From the NCBI GenBank assembly GCA_003971905.1, contig RSEE01000120.1, forward strand, positions 124,001 through 188,000: 64,000 nt of DNA, read 5' to 3'. Under the pieces are notes generated by a model that saw only the letters and a program-made list of their open reading frames with translations, was not told where the DNA came from and made no database searches. The stretch is from Moniliella sp. 'wahieum' (Eukaryota). Made by a program: the position numbers and the translations under genes. Shown here piece after piece: positions 5,435 through 62,950 of the stretch. Within the stretch, counting starts at the first letter, position 1, and every line of letters begins with the position of its first letter.

Positions 5435-8400
5435 TTAGACGGTGACCTTATGGGCGATCGCCATGGCCTGGTCGTCCGAGTGGGAGATGGAAACGATAAA
5501 CTTGACCTTGTCACCAGCGGCCTTGAGTGCTTCGCCATACAGTTTGACCTGGGGGGCAGGCCTTGGGTCGAAACGATCTCAATTTCGGCCATGGCTGCCG
5601 CCGCGCCCTTGGACGCCGTTCCAATCGCCTTGAACACGGCTTCCTTGGCGCAAAAGTGGCCCGTGAACGAAGCGCGAGCATCAGGCTGAGCGCGGCAGTA
5701 AGCCAACTCGGCGGGGGTAAAGTTGCGCCGGAGGAAAGCATCATTGTCAACGGGGAACGTGCTCGTCTTCTCCACGTCAATCCCGACGCCTTGCACACCT
5801 CCAATCATACCGGCCAGCTGGGCCTCTTGCGCCTGAGCCTCCGGTGCCTTGGGCACCTCGGCTTCCACCGCCACAGGCTGGGCAGGCTTCTCGTTTCGGG
5901 CGCCGGAGCCAAGGGGCGCTGGAAAACAAAGGTGCCATCGGCCTGTTCGGTGGCCCGGGCGTTGGGGTTGAGCAGCACTTCATCTTCCAGGTCTGCAGGG
6001 TAAGGAGGGTGGTCCTCAACCCGACCAGGTCGTTCTTGGTGAGCATGCCATGCATACGCACATACGTCTTGCCCAGCCGGCGACGACGCAGGCGATTGTA
6101 CTCGGCAAATTGCTCGTCCGACAGACGGCCTAGGAGATGAGCCGGGTGAAGGAAGAGCGCAATGCCGCCCACTTGGCCAAAGCCAAACGAAGTGACCAGA
6201 CCAGCGTGGAGGTCCTGCATCGTACGCTGAATCGAAGTGGAGTTGTAGAGCAAGTAGCGGTACTTTTGCAGTTCAGGGGAAATGTCATCCGCGTTGCGGT
6301 TGCCCGTCACTGTGGAGTACAAAAGCGACTGCATCACCCCGTTTGATGCCCACGCGGCCGCACCACCCTTGGCGTGACCAAGGATCCACTTCTGTGCCAT
6401 CACAGGTACCGCCAGACCGGGGGTACGGCCCATGCGCTCAAAGAGGGAGTTGTACACGTGCGACTCGTTCTTGTCGTTGGCCACGGTCGATGTGCCGTGC
6501 ATGGAAATGACACCCACATCGTCAGCAGTGAGCCCCCACGAGGCGAGCGCCTTCTGCAGGGGAACTGCGGACGCCATGACACCGTGGCCGGGCGCTGGAA
6601 CGGAGCGGCCTTGCTTGTCGGTGTGCGTCGAGGTGTAGGCCACAATACTCTGGATGGGACACCCCATCTTGAGCGCCTGGCGGGCGGTCATGAGGATCTG
6701 CACACCAGCACCCTGAGATTCCATGAACCCATTACGGCTCCGAGCCGTCGGGCGCGACATTTCCGATGGTTCACGACCAGCAGCCAGTTCCTCAACAGCG
6801 TTCGAGGTGGCACCCATGTTGGCAAACTCGTACGAACCTTCCTCGCAAAGGTCGTCCAAGCCACCAGCAATCATAACCTTGGCTTTGCCCGAGAGAATGG
6901 TCTCGGCTGCAATCTCAACCGACTGGAGACCAGTAGCACATGCACCGACAGGGATCTTGACGGGGCCCGAGGCGGAGAGGATCAGCAAGTTGCAACCAAC
7001 CGGCGATGGTGTTGATGAACGTCTCTTGAAGACATCTTTGTTCACCTCCGACTCTTGCCGGCGATCGACAAACATCTTGTGGAGAGAACTCATACCACCC
7101 ATACCGGAGCCGAGCGAGGTACCAACCTCAGACGGATGCACATACTTGTACAGCTCGTACGCGCTGGCGCCCAAGCCCGACATGACCAGCGCTTCCGACA
7201 AACAGACCAAGGCCCAGAGCGTGATGCGGTCCACATTGTTGGCAATGTCGTCGGGAATACCGTAGCGCTGAGCGTTCCATCCCGTGGGCAGCTGGCCCGC
7301 CACAAGGCGGTTGAAGGAGATGGCTTTGGGCACCATGATGCGAGCCCCACGCTTGAGCATCACAAACCACACGTCGTCCTCTTGCCATGCATCCGCCTTG
7401 TCGCCGTGCTCACGCTTGAATTTAGTCGCCTCCTCGGCCGAGACCTCAAGAGGCTCAAGGTCATGGGTAATCTCAACCTCTTGAATAAACTCCTTCTTGG
7501 TTGGGTCGTAGCCACTGAGCATCTCGGGTTCGATCATTCGGACACCCGTGTGAGCAAGAATGTCCTTTTCATAAAGTGTCTTGACATCCTTGTCCTCCAC
7601 CGGCTCGCCCGATTTGGCGTCGACCCATCCCACGTAGGGACCATTGGCGCCTGCCGCACCTGCGAGGGGACCATTGTGGTGCTTGATCAAGCCCATGATC
7701 CAAGCCATCTCAATCGCACCCTCCATGGTAAACTCGCCGTGCGCCTCCATTTCCCAGCGGGTACGAGAAGAGCCCCAGGGCCCACCTCGGCAAAGCCAGT
7801 GCAGACCACAATCTTGTCCAGCTCATCGTCCGTTACCGGCTGGCCTGCAAGGCGGGCGAGCTGGATGAGTTCCTTGCGCGGAGGGAGGGGGGGCGGAGCA
7901 AAGCGGAAGTTTGCACGAGGCTGAACATAAACCTTTGGTGCAGCTTCTCCGCCGCGGCGCCACGGATCACCACGAAGTCCGCCGAGGCATCCAAGTTGAC
8001 CATCCGCTTGCACATCCATCCTGCAGACCCTGGCGCAGAGAAGCCGACTTCTCAGCCAGGTTGGGCAGCCGATCAAATCCACCGCCCAAATCCGCAAACA
8101 GAGGCTCCACCTGTGAGATGGACGAGAGGACGGGGTGCAAAAGACCAAGAAGGTTGAATGCCATCTCAACGGGGCTGAACGTTCGCATTCCCAGGTTTTC
8201 CAACGCCTGGGCGATGATGTTGCTCTGCTCCATCAGGCCCGTGCCACGGACCCAGCCAATGCAGGCACCCGTGATTGAGAGGTAGTCAGACCAACCCTCG
8301 GAGGCCCAACGGTTGGCGAGCGTCTCGAGACCAATCTTGGATTCCGAGTAAAGACCGTCGGAGCCAAACAGACCGTGGTTAGGCGACAGCGGCAAGATGA

Positions 8401-9663
8401 CGCTGGTCGGGCGCGAATCAAACCCGTTGGCCGCCTTTTTGGCCTTGATCGCACCGAGGAGACGGATCACGTTGGTCATCATCAAACGATGGGCCAACTC
8501 CGACTTGTCGCCGATATTGTCAATGGGCATGCCCTGTTCCGAGATGGCGGCACCAGCGTAGACGAAGTCCAAGTCAAGGCCCATCGTGTCGTAAATGTAG
8601 TCAGCCAGGCTCTGCACGTCCTGCTTGGACGAGCCATTAAAGGGGAGAATCGTGAGCGAAGAACCACGGGAGCCGACTTCAGTGAAGATTTTTTTTGGTA
8701 AAATTCACACGTCTTGCGGCTGTACGACGAGGTGGTGATGACCACCTTGGCGCCCCCGGCCAAAAGACCCTTTACCATCTCCAATCCGATAGAGCCACGG
8801 CCAACACCGGTGAGCTACCAATCCAAAAAGAAACAATCACATGTCAGTTCACCTTTCGTCTGGCGGGGGAAGGAGGAAACGTACCAGGGCGTTCTTGTTC
8901 TCGAATGTGAGACCTTCGCGCGCCATCTCGTCCAACAAGGAGAAGTATACGCTGGTCAGCTTGGCCGAAGGCTGCCATTTGCCGGCAACTTTGCGTTGGA
9001 TGGTGAGGAAAGATTGGCGGCCTTCAGGCAAAGGCGCATCGACAAGGGCACCGGGAGCTGGACCGGCAGTTGCAACCGTGTCGGATGGACGGCGGGATCG
9101 ATGCGAGGTGGCAAAGCGCTTGGACTGGGGCGGGTGCCCCAGAGAACGGATGGTTTCATTGTACAGACTCTTGATGGTAGCCTTGCCCAGCTTGCTGACG
9201 GAAGGCTCGTTGCGGATCAGCGACCATAGCTTGGTAATGTTCTCGTGCGCCCGCTCCGTGTTGAGTTGGGCGGCGACGGTGCCGGCAGTGCGGGTGCCAG
9301 TCTCCATCTCCTTGACGTAGGCCTCGAGTTTGCGCACACCTTGGCGCTTGACTTCGCGGTAGATAATGTTCCCCTTGGCGTCAATCTCGGTGCAGGGGGC
9401 GGTGGGTGCGTAGACCTCCTTCCAGAGCGGGGCCTGGGCGGTGGCGACGGCCTCCTTGCAGTTGGCAACCAGCTCGGCGCCAAAGTAGTCCAGCAGCTCA
9501 TACGTCGGGCCTTGGCCAGGGCTGATGGTGCTGAGCTGGGCCTGCATGAACTGGACCAGGTCGGGGTCGGAGCGGTTGATGATGGAGATGCACTTTGCGG
9601 TGAGCTCGCGGGAGGGCGCTCGACGGACCGTCGTGCCATGACGCCAGCAGCGGAGGAGGACAT
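5435..9663 (-). CDS. FAS2: Fungal type-I fatty acid synthase chain containing only KR-KS-PPT (alpha-like, no MPT or ACP)
   Basis: [14 protein letters not shown] (spliced across intron 8815-8884) and [80 protein letters not shown] at 5435-5437. Candidate start gccATG at 9663. About 1380 aa after fixing frameshifts. Confidence 0.93.
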
Positions 9664-10313
9664 GGCGGGCGGGGGGGGGGGGGGGGGGGGGAAGGGTGGT
9701 GGTGGTGGTGGTGGCAGTGGTGGCACGCACGAGGGTTATCAGTGCGGACGAGGCGGTGCGAGGGGTTGGGGCGCGGGTGCGCTGGGGGCCCAACGCGGCG
9801 GCGGACGGAGCGGCGGGGCTGGCGAGATGGTTATGATTTTTGATTTACAAACGACGGTGTGGATTGGGATTGGGGGGCGCCAAACTGTTGGGAGCCAGTG
9901 TGGCCCGGCCGCTCCTCGCGCCTGAGACACACCCGCCGCCGCACGGCGCCTCTGCCCGGCGGCAGCTCCAGCCGCCTCTACGCAGCACCCACTAGTGCCC
10001 TGCCGCCATGTCCGCCGCATCGCACCCGCGGGAGCGCCAAGCCGCTCGGCTGGGTTGGTGTTGAGGCCCAGGGGCGTCTTCCCTTGAGCACCATCCCTCG
10101 CCTCGTCCTTCTCGCCTCGCCTCGCCACGCGCCGCGTTTTCGCTGGGGCACACCCGAGTTTCCCGGAGTGCCCTCCATCCATCCAGCAGCCGCCCCCAGC
10201 CATTACCTAATGCACCGGGGTTTAAAGTTGAAATGCCCCCCGCAGCCTCAGCACACCAGCTCCCCAGTCGACAAGAAACAAGCACCCGCAGGGCGCCAGT
10301 GAAAAGTCTCCAA

Positions 10314-10340
10314 GTCACATGACCAGTTGTCACATGTCAC
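10314..10340. promoter_or_regulatory. Twin E-box-like TCACATG elements in the FAS/ELO divergent promoter
   Basis: GTCACATGAC at 10314-10323 and GTCACATGTCAC at 10329-10340, between two divergently transcribed lipid genes. Confidence 0.45.
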
Positions 10341-10583
10341 TGGTGCGGAGGCTCAGCGCAGCGCATCTGCCACATCCATGCGGCCTTCCTTTGCCCCTGC
10401 TCCCACCGGCGTTCGTTACGCATCACCTTACCCTTTCTTGTCCCTCGTTTACCCATCCTCCCCTTCCCCCGTTCCTCCGCGCCCCCGCCCCGCTTCGCCT
10501 CGTCCCTTCCCGCTCCTCCCATCCTCCTCCCCTCCCTCTCCATCCTCCTTGCTCTCAAGACAATACCCAAATCACCTCTGCCC

Positions 10584-11461
10584 ATGCCCTCGACACCCGT
10601 GTACGATGCCGTGGTTGCCGCCATCCCGGCCAGCGTGCGCGCCCAGGCGCCCCTCTCCCTGATCGAGTGGACGCCCAATGAGACGCCCATCTCCTCGGTT
10701 GCTTCAGTTGTGACCGCGGCTGTACTCTATCTCAGCACCATCTTTGGCCTCCAGGCGGTTATGCGGTCCCGCCCCGCCGCCGGCAAGGGCCGCGTCTTCA
10801 AGGCTCTCTTCCTCATTCACAACATCCTTCTCACCCTTGGCAGCGGCCTGCTACTTGCTCTCATCCTCGAGGACGTTTGGCCTATCTATCGCCGCGGTGG
10901 CTCTTCTACGCGGTGTGCTCCCCCAAGGCCTGGACACCTCATCTGGAGACGTATTATATCATCAAACTACTTTAAGTACTGGGAACTCGCAGACACCGTG
11001 TTCCTCGTGCTCAAAAAGAAGCAACTCCAGTTCCTCCATGTTTCACCACGCTGCCACGGCGGCGCTGTGCTGGAGCCAGCTGATGGGCAAGACGAGTGTG
11101 TCGTGGGTGGTGATTGCCCTCAACCTGACGGTGCACGTTATGATGTACCTACTATGCCCTCTCCACCCTCCGCATCCCTTGCCCGTGGAAGAAGGCGGTA
11201 ACTGTGTCGCAAATTTCCCAATTCTTTCTCGACCTCTTCTTCGTCTACGGTTGCACCTACACCTTTTACGCCAACAAGTACTTCAACTCCATCCTGCCCA
11301 ACCTTGGCTCCTGCAGCGGTGCCCCCGAAGCAGCGTGGGCGGGTTGCTCGATCCTGTCTTCCTACCTTGTTCTCTTCATCGCATTCTACCGCAAGACGTA
11401 CAAGAAAGCCGGCCCCAAGCCTGTGGCTGCCAAGGCCAACGGGGTGACCCTCACACAGTAA
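10584..11461 (+). CDS. ELO: GNS1/SUR4 (ELO) fatty acid elongase
   Basis: [38 protein letters not shown] (HxxHH box across a frameshift), [33 protein letters not shown]. Multiple hydrophobic segments. Confidence 0.93.
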
Positions 11462-60043: not shown

Positions 60044-62950
60044 TTAAAGAGAGACGAACACACAGAGAGACAGATGGGAAGACACCTCTGATGCCATCGC
60101 GATTGGATGGGTAGACAGAAAACAAGGCAGGGGGAAAAGGATTCCGTCGTTGATGTTGAAATCTGCCGACGGTTTCCGGCTGGAATGCCAAGGGGACAAC
60201 CAGGACGTAGTGGAAGGCGCGTTCCTGTTGGGAAAAAAACTGTCGTTCCAGACCAGAACTTTTTCCTTGGTATCTCCGTAGTCGTTCTGGGGCCCAAGTT
60301 TGCTCAAGTGATTGAGGAAGCGCGTAAAGCGGGTGTCAGTACCCTCTGTAGGATACTCCATGGCAGTGATGATGGCTGCACAAAGCGAACATCCCACAGA
60401 AGCGGCGGCAGAAAGAATGTAATTCATCCTGTCAACAACCAATCCAGAGATTTTGTTAGAGAAGAGAGTCAGCCACATTCATCCTTGGAACAATACAAAG
60501 GGAAGAGAGAGTAGTGGGCGTACGCAATCCAATAATTCAAGTGCCGACGACGGGAGAACAATAGGTGGGTGACAGCCCCCCAGAAAAACCAGGAGGTCCA
60601 GCAAACCGCTGCAAAAAATGCGAATTGCGATACACCACCAAAGAAGAGCGGCCAATGGATCGAGCGGAGGTGAGCAGCGTGATTCAACTGGGGGGACACG
60701 CGTCCGGCAAGGTACAAGAGCAGGGGCGATTGCGCCAATAAGGAAAAAGTACAGAGTCCACTGGTATTGGTGCAGGAAGCCGTTTTGGCGAAGCCCAACG
60801 CCAGTCCAATATATGGGATCGTACAAACCTAAAACCCGCGATTCGGCTTGGGAGTTGAGCTTCAGCGCATTGGAACTCCATCCCACCCAGATTCCACTTT
60901 GCAACACCGAGCAGGCCAATTGGGTTCCAACGAGTACAAAGAAGGTGATCCGTGGTGGGATCTTAAAGTAGAGTGCCAGTTTGGAGCAGCCACAGTAGAG
61001 CAACGCCTGCTGGATGCTCCCCGCGCAGCATAGCTGAAAAAGCGGAAGGATGGTCGTGTGCCCAGGCAGAGAAGCACTAGCAATCAACGTCGCCAAGTGC
61101 TCCACACACTTCAACTCTACCGACGTCCGGCCCAGCACAATGCCTACTGGAACAATAAAGATTGCAGCCAGCGCGAGGGCAAGCACAATCGCCCAAACCG
61201 GGACCGAGGTGTGGTACACGTGCACCATCGGGATGGCAAAGACAAATGCAACCAGTACCAAGCACAGTACCACCAGGTGGGAACAGCCGGGTAGCGGGCG
61301 AGTTGGCGGGCGGGGGTCAGGCGAATCAGCCACGTTGGATACTTTCCACCAGCGGCGTAGATCGCCGCCATGGAAAAGCGGGGTGTGCACGAGTAAGGCA
61401 GTGCAAGCAGCATAAGAAACGCCCAGGTCATGATGTTTGTGGCAGAAAAGTATCCCTGGGGTGGGTCGGGCGAATCAAATTGGGGGAGATCTAGATCCAT
61501 GTCTTGGGGCAATTGGTTGGTATTCATATCGTTGATATCCAGCTATGGGTACCAAACCACGTTGAGAAGGGTATAGGGAAGGCAGGCCGCCAGGTTCCGG
61601 TTGGTGAAAAAGATCGGGAGGACAATGACCCACATGGAAACGACGAAGCCACAGAATACGTTGACCAGTGCGCCCCATGGGACGATTAAGGGTGAATTCA
61701 ACGCTCGGATTACTAAAGTCCAGTCCAGGGACCAAAAGGACCAGCCCATGCCAGCCATTCCATCAAACAATAGATTGACCACAAATTGGACGGAGCAATC
61801 CACGTTGGCCATTCGAACTTTCCCGAGGTGGATAGAAGAATAGTGGGATCCAGTGCCAGATGAACATGACCGTCGCCACAATCCAGAAAATGCGGCGACG
61901 GTTCCAGTTTCCACGGCGAACCCCGTGTAAAGCCGTCAACATTGCACTGGTCTGAAGCTGCTGAGGATAAGCAGCTCACCAGGCCAAATGAGAAGACGCG
62001 TGGCGAGACCGGCCAAGGCAAATCCAAAGAATGGGGTCGAGAGATAGATAAGAAAGAGGAATCCGGGTGGGAATGTGTTCGCTTGTTTTGTGCCCCCCTC
62101 TGTTGTCAATAGAGACATTCCGGCCAAGTATTGCATGGTTAGGTTGGGGCCCATGGCAACCGTAGCGACGATGGTGCAGATCCTGCGCGAAACAATCACA
62201 CGAGTCAGACAAAGGTCTCCTTACCTGGAACCTCAACATCTCGGAAGGTGGGACGCACGTATGTTCCTTGAGGTTGAAAGGGCCCGGGTTGATGACCAAG
62301 CCAGGGCCAGTGGGATGGTTACGGTATTTTCGATAGCGCGAAACCCAAACAGTAGGCGAATGGCTGCAACCAACACCGCACTTGTAGAAACAAAGAGCTG
62401 TGGGTTGGTCCAGTCTCCTCGGATCTCCATAGCCATGAGGGCGGTGGTGAGGCCGAGGGCCAGGATCATGGAAAGCAGCCAGGTGCGGATCGTGTTGAAT
62501 GGCATATCTGGGTCGTCTTCATTAGGCACGATTGCGCGCACACGCGCATCAGCCAAGTCGGGAACCTTCTCTTCGTCTGGGTCGTTTTCATCTCCATTGT
62601 TGGCGCCTTCACCCCACTGGCCCGATCCCCGGTTTTCGTTCGTCGCGAGTCGTGTCCCAGAGGGCTCCTCATCTCGACTCAGCAGTCGGTCGTTGTAATA
62701 GAGCGCGTTTTCCAAGAGCGACTCTGTTTCGATCCCATTCTCATTGTCGTGCTCGACTGTGTTTGTGAACGAAAACGGGGTAGTGTTCTTGTACGTCGCG
62801 TGATTTGTTGATGCTATGCCTATCACTTGTGAGGGTCTGAAGAGAGTCGATGACATCCGGCATGGACAGAAGGCCCCAGTCTTTGGCATGTGGGCGGGCC
62901 CGTTCCTCATGCGCTTCGTTGGGCCCTCTGCTCGGCCGAGGAGTCGACAT
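60044..62950 (-). CDS. OPT-family oligopeptide transporter (divergent)
   Basis: VRAIVPNEDDPDMPFNTIRTW, INPGPFNLKEH, GFALAGLATRLLIWP, SLDWTLVIRALNSPLIVPW, KLALYFKIPPR, MNYILSAA. Frameshifted, with at least one intron. Confidence 0.88.

What the first reader, a model, noticed from the sequence alone, without database searches (positions are those of the whole stretch)
5435..9663. ACP-less KR-KS-PPT fatty acid synthase chain: candidate new split point of the fungal FAS
Seen: FAS homology starts abruptly at [18 protein letters not shown]. About 15 codons upstream (one frameshift away) is an ATG in strong gccATG context at 9663, preceded by C-rich UTR-like DNA. The next gene (ELO) starts ~920 bp away on the other strand, so there is no room for AT-ER-DH-MPT-ACP. 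KR Ser/Tyr, KS Cys-His-His and the PPT motifs are intact. Known: fungal FAS is single-chain (e.g. Ustilago) or split within MPT (ascomycetes), within the ER region (Rhodotorula toruloides) or at the KR/KS helical bundle (Tremellomycetes). From memory, this start aligns downstream of ACP and the hub region of yeast Fas2 (about residue 440). Inference: either a two-gene FAS with an undescribed break between ACP and KR, or a stand-alone accessory KR-KS-PPT chain acting in trans.
Basis: partly seen in the sequence, partly recalled or inferred. Interest (0 to 1): 0.85.

Follow-up and report, generated by a model that had tools for sequence, protein, structure and literature searches.

The report
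Known-type split fatty acid synthase alpha
This gene is the KR-KS-PPT half of a two-gene fungal fatty acid synthase, cut at a break point already described in Cryptococcus and its relatives, so the break point is not new, though here it sits in a smut-related yeast lineage that seems to have acquired it separately.

Summary
The observation largely holds. A FAS alpha-like gene (minus strand, ATG 9663 to stop 5435, one intron) carries only half of the helical domain, then KR, KS and PPT. Homology starts near residue 426 of yeast Fas2. No other FAS domain lies in the 64 kb.

The interpretation "undescribed break" fails. The N-terminus falls in the same inter-helix loop of the four-helix bundle (4HB) that defines the published Tremellomycetes-type split. 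The Pfam FAS_I_H match starts at profile position 97 here, 91 in Tilletiaria anomala and 92 in Cryptococcus neoformans Fas2.

The nearest named relative, Tilletiaria, has a collinear 1382-aa alpha. It also has a 2646-aa beta (AT-ER-DH-MPT-ACP) that ends with the complementary half-domain. A partner gene elsewhere in this genome is therefore expected.

The reading frame is broken 11 times, but indels are equally dense in ELO and a distant OPT gene. There are no stop codons after frame correction. This points to assembly error, not a pseudogene.

In a tree, this gene and Tilletiaria nest inside the otherwise single-chain Ustilaginomycotina, and an AU test rejects grouping them with Tremellomycetes. 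The residual novelty is a probable independent, convergent fission at the same loop. Interest is modest.

The parts
5435..9663 (-). FAS alpha-subunit gene (half 4HB/helical domain - KR - KS - PPT), ATG 9663 to TAA 5437-5435. The conceptual product is about 1380 aa.
   Evidence: A frameshift-aware alignment to Tilletiaria P0003 covers the full length: 1042 identities in 1409 columns, 0 stop codons. tblastn agrees.
8815..8884 (-). Single intron (70 nt, GTACGT...TAG) between FENKNAL and LTGVGRGS.
   Evidence: Sequence. The P0003 alignment is continuous across it.
9293..9616 (-). C-terminal half of the FAS type I helical domain, which includes the alpha-side helices of the 4HB.
   Evidence: Pfam FAS_I_H profile 97-202 of 203, E 5e-24.
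8225..8814 (-). Ketoacyl reductase core (Rossmann GxGxxG segment, YSESK).
   Evidence: Pfam adh_short. Alignment to P0003.
6023..7783 (-). Ketoacyl synthase with the Cys (PVGACATG) and two His (HGTST, GHAKG). It lacks the roughly 90-aa insertion seen in non-Ustilaginomycotina FAS.
   Evidence: Pfam ketoacyl-synt N and C halves. PDB alignment skips T. lanuginosus residues 1405-1500. Residue count across that region.
5438..5790 (-). Phosphopantetheinyl transferase domain.
   Evidence: Pfam ACPS, E 7.4e-17. Alignment.
5562..9645 (-). Eleven frame breaks, at about 9645, 9614, 8694, 8017, 7937, 7785, 7033, 6995, 6025, 5897 and 5562. Three behave as one extra base and eight as one missing base.
   Evidence: Dynamic-programming alignment with frameshift states. 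Frame blocks in tblastn.
9664..10583 (.). Divergent intergenic region shared with ELO. It holds a C21 run (9671-9691) and CCA repeats just upstream of the ATG, and has no FAS coding potential.
   Evidence: Sequence. No tblastn hit. No Pfam hit.
10584..11419 (+). ELO (GNS1/SUR4) fatty-acid elongase, the divergent neighbour. It has two frame breaks of its own.
   Evidence: Pfam ELO profile 2-119, 112-157 and 157-240 in three overlapping ORFs in three frames.

Best explanation
The gene encodes the alpha subunit of a two-gene, barrel-type fungal fatty acid synthase with Tremellomycetes-type topology.

The alpha chain supplies the second half of the four-helix bundle, then KR, KS and PPT. A beta chain encoded elsewhere in the genome supplies AT-ER-DH-MPT-ACP, DM1 and the first half of the bundle.

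[quoted passage not shown] The complex then assembles as alpha6-beta6. The ACP is carried on beta, is phosphopantetheinylated by the PPT of alpha, and shuttles to KS and KR on alpha.

The organism belongs to the Ustilaginomycotina, close to Tilletiaria. The fission in that lineage is independent of the one in Tremellomycetes. The frame breaks are errors of this assembly.

Shown here: domain content, the break position, the orthologue and its partner in Tilletiaria, the phylogenetic placement, and the indel density in other genes. Inferred: that a beta gene exists in this genome, how the complex assembles, and that it is the primary FAS.
For: 1. Same break point.
- FAS_I_H starts at profile position 97 in the window, 91 in Tilletiaria P0003 and 92 in C. 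neoformans Fas2 P0018.
- The beta chains end at profile position 97 (Tilletiaria P0121) and 94 (C. gattii P0139).
- In single-chain Tilletia the two helices are joined by about four residues (..IIHGELTTVDREIT..). Both split lineages break there.

2. Start codon.
- The Tilletiaria alpha begins with a Met and a 19-residue head that matches the window's head when read across three frames.
- P0313 is 91% identical over 242 aa and comes from an unnamed source. It is an uninterrupted ORF from that same Met.

3. Partner.
- P0121 of Tilletiaria anomala is 2646 aa and runs FAS_N-SAT-ER helical-DH-MPT-ACP-half FAS_I_H, with no KS or PPT.
- It is listed with the same longest-contig length (167012) as P0003.

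4. Not a pseudogene.
- There are 0 stop codons after frame correction, and identity to P0003 is 74% over the full length.
- The window keeps 474 of 494 columns that are invariant in 14 other Ustilaginomycotina rows. Most of the changes are conservative.
- Frame breaks are about as dense in ELO (2 in about 0.74 kb) and OPT (3 in about 1.5 kb) as in this gene (11 in 4.2 kb).

5. Placement.
- The window pairs with Tilletiaria (SH-aLRT 100) inside a Ustilaginomycotina clade (SH-aLRT 100).
- An AU test rejects one clade of all 4HB-split alphas, p 7.5e-9.
- 16 of 16 Ustilaginomycotina rows have 10 residues in a KS region where 20 of 20 other rows have 77-106.

6. Literature. The Tremellomycetes-type split and its co-translational assembly are described in PMC6972935.
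Against: - The beta gene of this organism was not seen. Only 64 kb is available, and it holds no beta-like sequence.
- In Tremellomycetes FAS1 and FAS2 are adjacent and divergently transcribed (PMC4513080). Here the divergent neighbour is ELO, so the genomic arrangement differs.
- The window's terminal branch (0.26) is longer than Tilletiaria's (0.11). It has 18 changes at otherwise invariant columns, against 0-10 in the other rows.
- The frame breaks are not clearly enriched at homopolymers. A run of 3 or more lies nearby at 8 of 11 sites against a 70% background, and a run of 4 or more at 3 of 11 against 19%. The error model therefore rests on the neighbouring genes, not on sequence context.
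- The tree is a 'quick' LG+G4 tree of 36 hand-picked rows, and I named the AU test group after seeing the tree.
- No transcript or read data were available.
Confidence: 0.85

Rival explanations
1. Dead partial duplicate: a pseudogenised KR-KS-PPT fragment lying beside a complete FAS encoded elsewhere.
For: There are eleven frame breaks in 4.2 kb. The terminal branch is longer than the sister's. There are 18 changes at otherwise invariant columns.
Against: There are no nonsense codons once frames are followed, and all catalytic motifs are kept. The window keeps 96% of invariant columns. Indel density is similar in ELO, and in an OPT gene 50 kb away. A 91%-identical relative, P0313, has exon 1 as an intact ORF. 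The gene is collinear end to end with an annotated orthologue that starts at the same Met.
Confidence: 0.04
2. Stand-alone accessory KR-KS-PPT chain that acts in trans on another synthase's ACP, for example for a specialised lipid made together with the neighbouring ELO.
For: The gene shares a divergent promoter region with an elongase rather than with FAS1. No partner lies in the window.
Against: Its orthologue in Tilletiaria is matched by a beta chain that ends exactly where alpha begins. No Tilletiaria single-chain FAS appears among the 120 listed long hits, whereas eight named plus one unnamed Ustilaginomycotina-type single chains do. In the tree it sits among primary FAS sequences, not on a separate paralogue branch. 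It keeps the half 4HB that only makes sense as a docking element.
Confidence: 0.06
3. Assembly artefact: a single-chain FAS gene truncated by a misjoin at the C/G run near 9671-9691.
For: The assembly is clearly error-prone. A 21-base homopolymer sits 8 bp upstream of the ATG.
Against: The 19 residues ahead of RELTAKC are not the continuation seen in single-chain Tilletia. They match the private N-terminal head and Met of the Tilletiaria alpha and of P0313. The break coincides with a biologically established split site.
Confidence: 0.03

Closest known systems
Tremellomycetes-type FAS alpha subunit (e.g. Cryptococcus neoformans Fas2, P0018, 1438 aa)
   Same: The domain order is the same: half 4HB/helical domain, KR, KS, PPT, with no ACP. 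The break lies in the same inter-helix loop (FAS_I_H profile position 92 against 97). The ACP is carried by the beta chain.
   Different: It belongs to a different clade; the AU test rejects a common clade. The window's KS lacks the roughly 90-aa insertion that Tremellomycetes keep. The head and tail peptides at the break are unrelated. FAS1 is not the divergent neighbour. Identity is about 51% over the first 997 residues of P0018.
Tilletiaria anomala UBC 951 'thiolase-like protein' (P0003, 1382 aa) with K437DRAFT_273590 (P0121, 2646 aa)
   Same: It is the orthologue. It is collinear from the start Met to the C-terminus, 74% identical over all alignment columns and 77% over the kept tree columns. 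It has the same break, the same lack of the KS insertion, and is the sister in the tree.
   Different: It is a different species or genus (terminal branches 0.26 and 0.11).
Ustilaginomycetes-type single-chain FAS (Ustilago, Sporisorium, Tilletia, Violaceomyces; P0206-P0214, 3671-3957 aa)
   Same: It lies in the same clade and shares the KS deletion. These chains are 66-68% identical to the Tilletiaria alpha over 99% of its length.
   Different: Here the polypeptide is cut in the loop that is continuous in those proteins.
Ascomycota-type Fas2 (S. cerevisiae, T. lanuginosus; PDB 2uv8, 4v58)
   Same: The KR-KS-PPT catalytic core is the same, with E 1.1e-204 for the KS ORF.
   Different: The ascomycete alpha also carries the end of MPT, the ACP, DM1 and the first half of the helical domain (about 425 extra N-terminal residues), plus the KS insertion.

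Membership tests
Fungal type I FAS, alpha-type module (KR-KS-PPT) | KR, KS and PPT domains in this order with catalytic motifs | tested here: met
   Pfam finds adh_short, ketoacyl-synt N and C halves, and ACPS. In the alignment to T. lanuginosus alpha, the Cys and both His of the KS line up. YSESK and GIDVE are present.
Tremellomycetes-type two-gene FAS topology | Alpha chain begins inside the 4HB/helical domain, downstream of ACP and DM1 and upstream of KR | tested here: met
   FAS_I_H starts at profile position 97 (window), 91 (Tilletiaria) and 92 (Cryptococcus). The junction sequences are shown. The published description was read in PMC6972935.
Tremellomycetes-type two-gene FAS topology | Complementary beta chain AT-ER-DH-MPT-ACP that ends with the first half of the helical domain, in the same genome | not testable with these tools
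   Only 64 kb of this genome is available, and it holds no beta-like sequence. The feature is met in the nearest named relative: P0121 has FAS_I_H profile 3-97 at residues 2542-2636 of 2646.
Tremellomycetes-type two-gene FAS topology | FAS1 and FAS2 adjacent and divergently transcribed (as reported for Tremellomycetes, PMC4513080) | tested here: not met
   The divergent neighbour is ELO. No FAS1-like sequence lies in the window. The paper passage was read.
Tremellomycetes FAS2 clade (descent) | Groups with Tremellomycete alpha subunits in a tree | tested here: not met
   The gene nests in Ustilaginomycotina (SH-aLRT 100). An AU test of a single clade of 4HB-split alphas gives p 7.5e-9.
Ustilaginomycotina FAS clade | Lacks the roughly 90-aa KS insertion and groups with Ustilago/Tilletia FAS | tested here: met
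   It has 10 residues in the region, as do 16 of 16 Ustilaginomycotina rows, against 77-106 residues in 20 of 20 other rows. Tree.
Ustilaginomycetes-type FAS topology | All eight domains on one polypeptide | tested here: not met
   The gene starts at 9663 with its own Met. There is no upstream FAS coding sequence.

The most novel reading that the evidence does not exclude
The fungal FAS gene was cut a second time, independently, in the very same four-residue loop of the four-helix bundle. This happened in an Exobasidiomycete lineage (Tilletiaria plus the organism of this window), inside a subphylum treated in the literature as single-chain. The two halves are not arranged as the divergent FAS1/FAS2 pair seen in Tremellomycetes, and the alpha gene is instead paired head to head with a fatty-acid elongase. 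Other alpha-like N-termini turned up in Microstromatales and in an unnamed group. Together these would make Exobasidiomycetes a natural series of FAS topologies for testing which break points co-translational assembly tolerates.
Probability: 0.55. Interest if true: 0.45.

Novelty: new member of a known kind. Interest (0 to 1): 0.3.

Why it matters
The break point claimed as new is the documented Tremellomycetes-type one, so the headline claim does not stand.

What remains is an evolutionary point. The same loop of a 2.6-MDa machine appears to have been chosen twice for gene fission. That fits the published idea that split sites lie inside intertwined structural motifs that can form co-translationally. 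It also offers a second natural example for testing that idea.

In practice, the window comes from an indel-rich assembly. Every gene model in it, and any 'pseudogene' call, must be read with frameshift-aware methods.

Tried and rejected
- Secondary-metabolite FAS paralogue. I first suspected a HexA/B-like or glycolipid-cluster paralogue, because the best PDB hits were ascomycete and ELO is adjacent. I rejected this. The rest of the window holds housekeeping genes (Dcp2/NUDIX, Rad1, RabGAP, DnaJ, Elongin A, Mit_KHE1, OPT), and the tree places the gene among primary FAS sequences.
- KS deletion as decay or a paralogue mark. I rejected this because all 16 Ustilaginomycotina rows share the missing KS insertion.
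- Frame breaks at homopolymers. This did not hold against background, so I do not claim it.
- First Pfam call. One search failed on a mis-framed reference, and I corrected the coordinates.
- Papers not held. Bukhari et al. 2014 (Structure) and Fischer et al. 2015 (Protein Sci) are not in the library. I know them only from the reference list of PMC6972935 and from recall, so I cannot say whether they already list Tilletiaria or Exobasidiomycetes.
- Searches for a prior description. 'fatty acid synthase' + 'Tilletiaria' found 0 papers. 'fatty acid synthase' + 'gene fission' + 'Basidiomycota' found 0. With 'Exobasidiomycetes' as one of four terms, none of the 15 listed papers (of 313) held that word.
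- Adjacency of the two Tilletiaria genes. The listing of cluster members for their accessions was not sent because the database is switched off, so adjacency stays unchecked.
The beta gene of this organism could therefore not be looked for.
Full report
**What is in the sequence**

On the minus strand between 9663 and 5435 lies a gene homologous to the alpha subunit of fungal type I fatty acid synthase.
- phmmer of the first ORF against PDB sequences aligns its residues 75-319 to residues 423-655 of the Thermomyces lanuginosus alpha chain (E 5.5e-34). The same ORF aligns to residues 426-676 of S. cerevisiae Fas2.
- Pfam finds only the C-terminal half of the FAS type I helical domain (profile 97-202 of 203). 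After that come adh_short, both halves of the ketosynthase, and the ACPS phosphopantetheinyl transferase.
- The ATG at 9663 sits in a gccATG context behind a run of 21 C and CCA repeats. The ELO start at 10584 is 921 bp away on the other strand.
- tblastn of six FAS proteins (P0067, P0001, P0008, P0003, P0018, P0052) against the whole window gave 29 of 29 HSPs inside 5444-9649. P0067 (3401 aa) and P0001 (3210 aa) are near-complete fused chains.
- Two beta subunits (P0121, P0139) gave no HSP with E<1. A single-chain FAS (P0206) matched only with its alpha part, plus three chance-level HSPs at E 0.21-0.27.

**Gene model and frame breaks**

There is one 70-nt intron (8884-8815).

I aligned the spliced DNA to the best full-length relative, P0003, with a dynamic-programming alignment that allows frameshifts.
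- It needs 11 frame breaks: three that behave as an extra base and eight as a missing base.
- It then gives 1042 identities in 1409 columns and no stop codon.
- Two of the breaks lie in the first 20 codons. The ATG is thus two breaks away from the FAS frame, not one.

The breaks are not specific to this gene.
- The neighbouring ELO gene is spread over three overlapping ORFs in three frames. Their Pfam coordinates are contiguous (2-119, 112-157, 157-240), which means two breaks in about 0.74 kb.
- An OPT transporter 50 kb away changes frame three times over about 1.5 kb, with no room for introns.

Densities of about 2-3 breaks per kb everywhere point to an indel-rich assembly.

The breaks are not clearly tied to homopolymers. 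A run of 3 or more lies nearby at 8 of 11 sites against a 70% background, and a run of 4 or more at 3 of 11 against 19%.

Selection is visible. The window keeps 474 of 494 columns that are invariant in 14 other Ustilaginomycotina rows. This used 15 of the 16 rows of that clade; the metaclust row was left out by my name filter. Eighteen of the remaining 20 columns are substitutions, mostly conservative, and two fall on a frameshift X. Five of the 20 lie within five columns of a frame break.

**The start**

Tilletiaria anomala P0003 (1382 aa, named 'thiolase-like protein' in its source) aligns from residue 8 to 1380 with 9649-5444.

Its first 19 residues (Met, a Ser/Ala-rich stretch..W.DGPSSAL.) match the window's head once the window is read across the three frames.

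The single-job HMMER search of the representative library used exon 1 as query. It found 195 proteins at E<=0.001, of which 150 are listed. The best, P0313 (272 aa, unnamed source), is 91% identical over all 242 query residues. It is an uninterrupted ORF from the same Met.

The truncated N-terminus is therefore a conserved biological start, not a misjoin.

**The break is the published Tremellomycetes-type split**

Passages of Fischer et al. 2020 (PMC6972935) make three points.
- In Tremellomycetes-type FAS the chain termini intertwine to form a four-helix bundle.
- The DM1-4HB linker and the 4HB form an insertion that enwraps the KR.
- Deleting the N-terminal helices alpha10-12 of the Tremellomycetes-mimicking alpha chain abolishes function.

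In the sequence, the bundle therefore lies in front of KR.

The coordinates agree.
- C. neoformans Fas2 (P0018, 1438 aa) has no ACP domain and starts at FAS_I_H profile position 92. Tilletiaria starts at 91 and the window at 97.
- The beta chains end at profile position 94 (C. gattii P0139, 2514 aa) and 97 (Tilletiaria P0121, 2646 aa).
- In single-chain Tilletia caries the two helices are joined by about four residues. Both split lineages are cut there, and each has its own unrelated tail and head peptides.

**The partner**

A search with the MPT-ACP-DM1 part of a Microstroma protein listed 120 of 2407 hits. Among them was P0121 from Tilletiaria anomala.
- Its order is FAS_N, SAT/AT, ER helical, meander, DH, MPT, ACP, then the first half of FAS_I_H. 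It has no KS or PPT.
- It is listed with the same longest-contig length (167012) as P0003.

A search for long relatives of P0003 listed 120 of 662 hits. These included nine Ustilaginomycotina-type single chains of 3671-3957 aa (eight named: Tilletia, Violaceomyces, Ustilago, Sporisorium, Testicularia, Pseudozyma). No Tilletiaria single chain appeared. That is weak to moderate evidence that the two-gene enzyme is Tilletiaria's primary FAS.

**Descent**

I hand-picked 35 proteins from the several hundred fetched, to represent lineages. I trimmed them to the alpha-like region and added the window's conceptual product.

A quick IQ-TREE (LG+G4, 1352 of 1735 columns, SH-aLRT support only) gives the following.
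- The window pairs with Tilletiaria (100).
- That pair sits inside a clade with Tilletia and the Microstromatales (98).
- That clade sits inside Ustilaginomycotina (100).
- Tremellomycetes form a separate clade (100).

Forcing all seven 4HB-split alphas into one clade costs 368 log-likelihood units (AU p 7.5e-9). I named that group after seeing the tree.

An independent character supports the same placement. Across T. lanuginosus alpha 1400-1505, 16 of 16 Ustilaginomycotina rows have 10 residues, while 20 of 20 other rows, Tremellomycetes included, have 77-106.
- Bacterial type I FAS also aligns in a single stretch across that region.
- From recall, this insertion is probably the element called DM4. 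[quoted passage not shown]

The simplest reading is two independent fissions at the same loop.

**How it most likely works**

By homology, alpha contributes KR, KS, PPT and half of the 4HB. Beta carries AT, ER, DH, MPT and the ACP. The halves of the bundle dock, probably co-translationally as argued for Tremellomycetes-type FAS, and an alpha6-beta6 barrel forms. These steps are inferred, not shown here.

**Rivals**

- Pseudogene. This is contradicted by the controls in other genes, the absence of nonsense codons and the retained invariant columns.
- Accessory chain acting in trans. This is contradicted by the complementary beta in the sister species and by the placement among primary FAS sequences.
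- Misjoin at the C-run. This is contradicted by the conserved private N-terminal head.

**Novelty and limits**

The split point is already known. Its occurrence in an Exobasidiomycete lineage, apparently by convergence and without the divergent FAS1/FAS2 pairing reported for Tremellomycetes (PMC4513080, passage read), is not mentioned in any paper my searches reached. The two most relevant papers could not be read.

The orthologue and its partner are already in public databases under uninformative names. The beta gene of this organism, read support, transcripts and the Tilletiaria gene arrangement all remain unchecked (could not be made).

Noticed in passing
whole window; shown at 10584-11419 (ELO), 60700-62181 (OPT) and 5435-9663 (FAS): One-base indels occur at about 2-3 per kb in every gene examined, so ORFs are fragmented throughout. 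Long stop-free ORFs are rare, and Pfam hits are partial for Asp protease, amidohydrolase, RabGAP, Dcp2, Rad1 and others.
   Followed up: partly
9664-10583 and 10584-11419: FAS alpha and an ELO-family elongase are transcribed divergently from a shared 920-bp GC-rich spacer. In Tremellomycetes the divergent partner of FAS2 is FAS1. The arrangement suggests possible co-regulation of synthesis and elongation. Whether it is conserved in Tilletiaria was not checked.
   Followed up: no
6560-6570 (KS; the point where T. lanuginosus alpha 1405-1500 has no counterpart): A roughly 90-residue KS insertion is absent from all 16 Ustilaginomycotina FAS rows. It is present in 20 of 20 other fungal rows, including chytrids. 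This looks like a clade-wide loss of a scaffold element, probably DM4 (that name is from recall).
   Followed up: partly
related proteins P0008, P0027 (about 2030 aa) and P0009, P0010, P0021 (about 1900 aa): Other Exobasidiomycete-clade alpha-like proteins begin at other places. One group begins just ahead of the MPT GHSLG motif (Microstroma, Sympodiomycopsis). Another begins about 145 residues later in MPT. These may be further split types or may be truncated gene models. No partners were sought.
   Followed up: partly
related protein P0009: A protein filed under the fern Adiantum nelumboides sits inside Ustilaginomycotina in the tree. It most likely comes from a fungal contaminant of that assembly.
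   Followed up: no
9671-9720: A run of 21 C, followed upstream by (CCA)n repeats, lies directly 5' of the start codon. In an indel-prone assembly the length of this run is unreliable.
   Followed up: no
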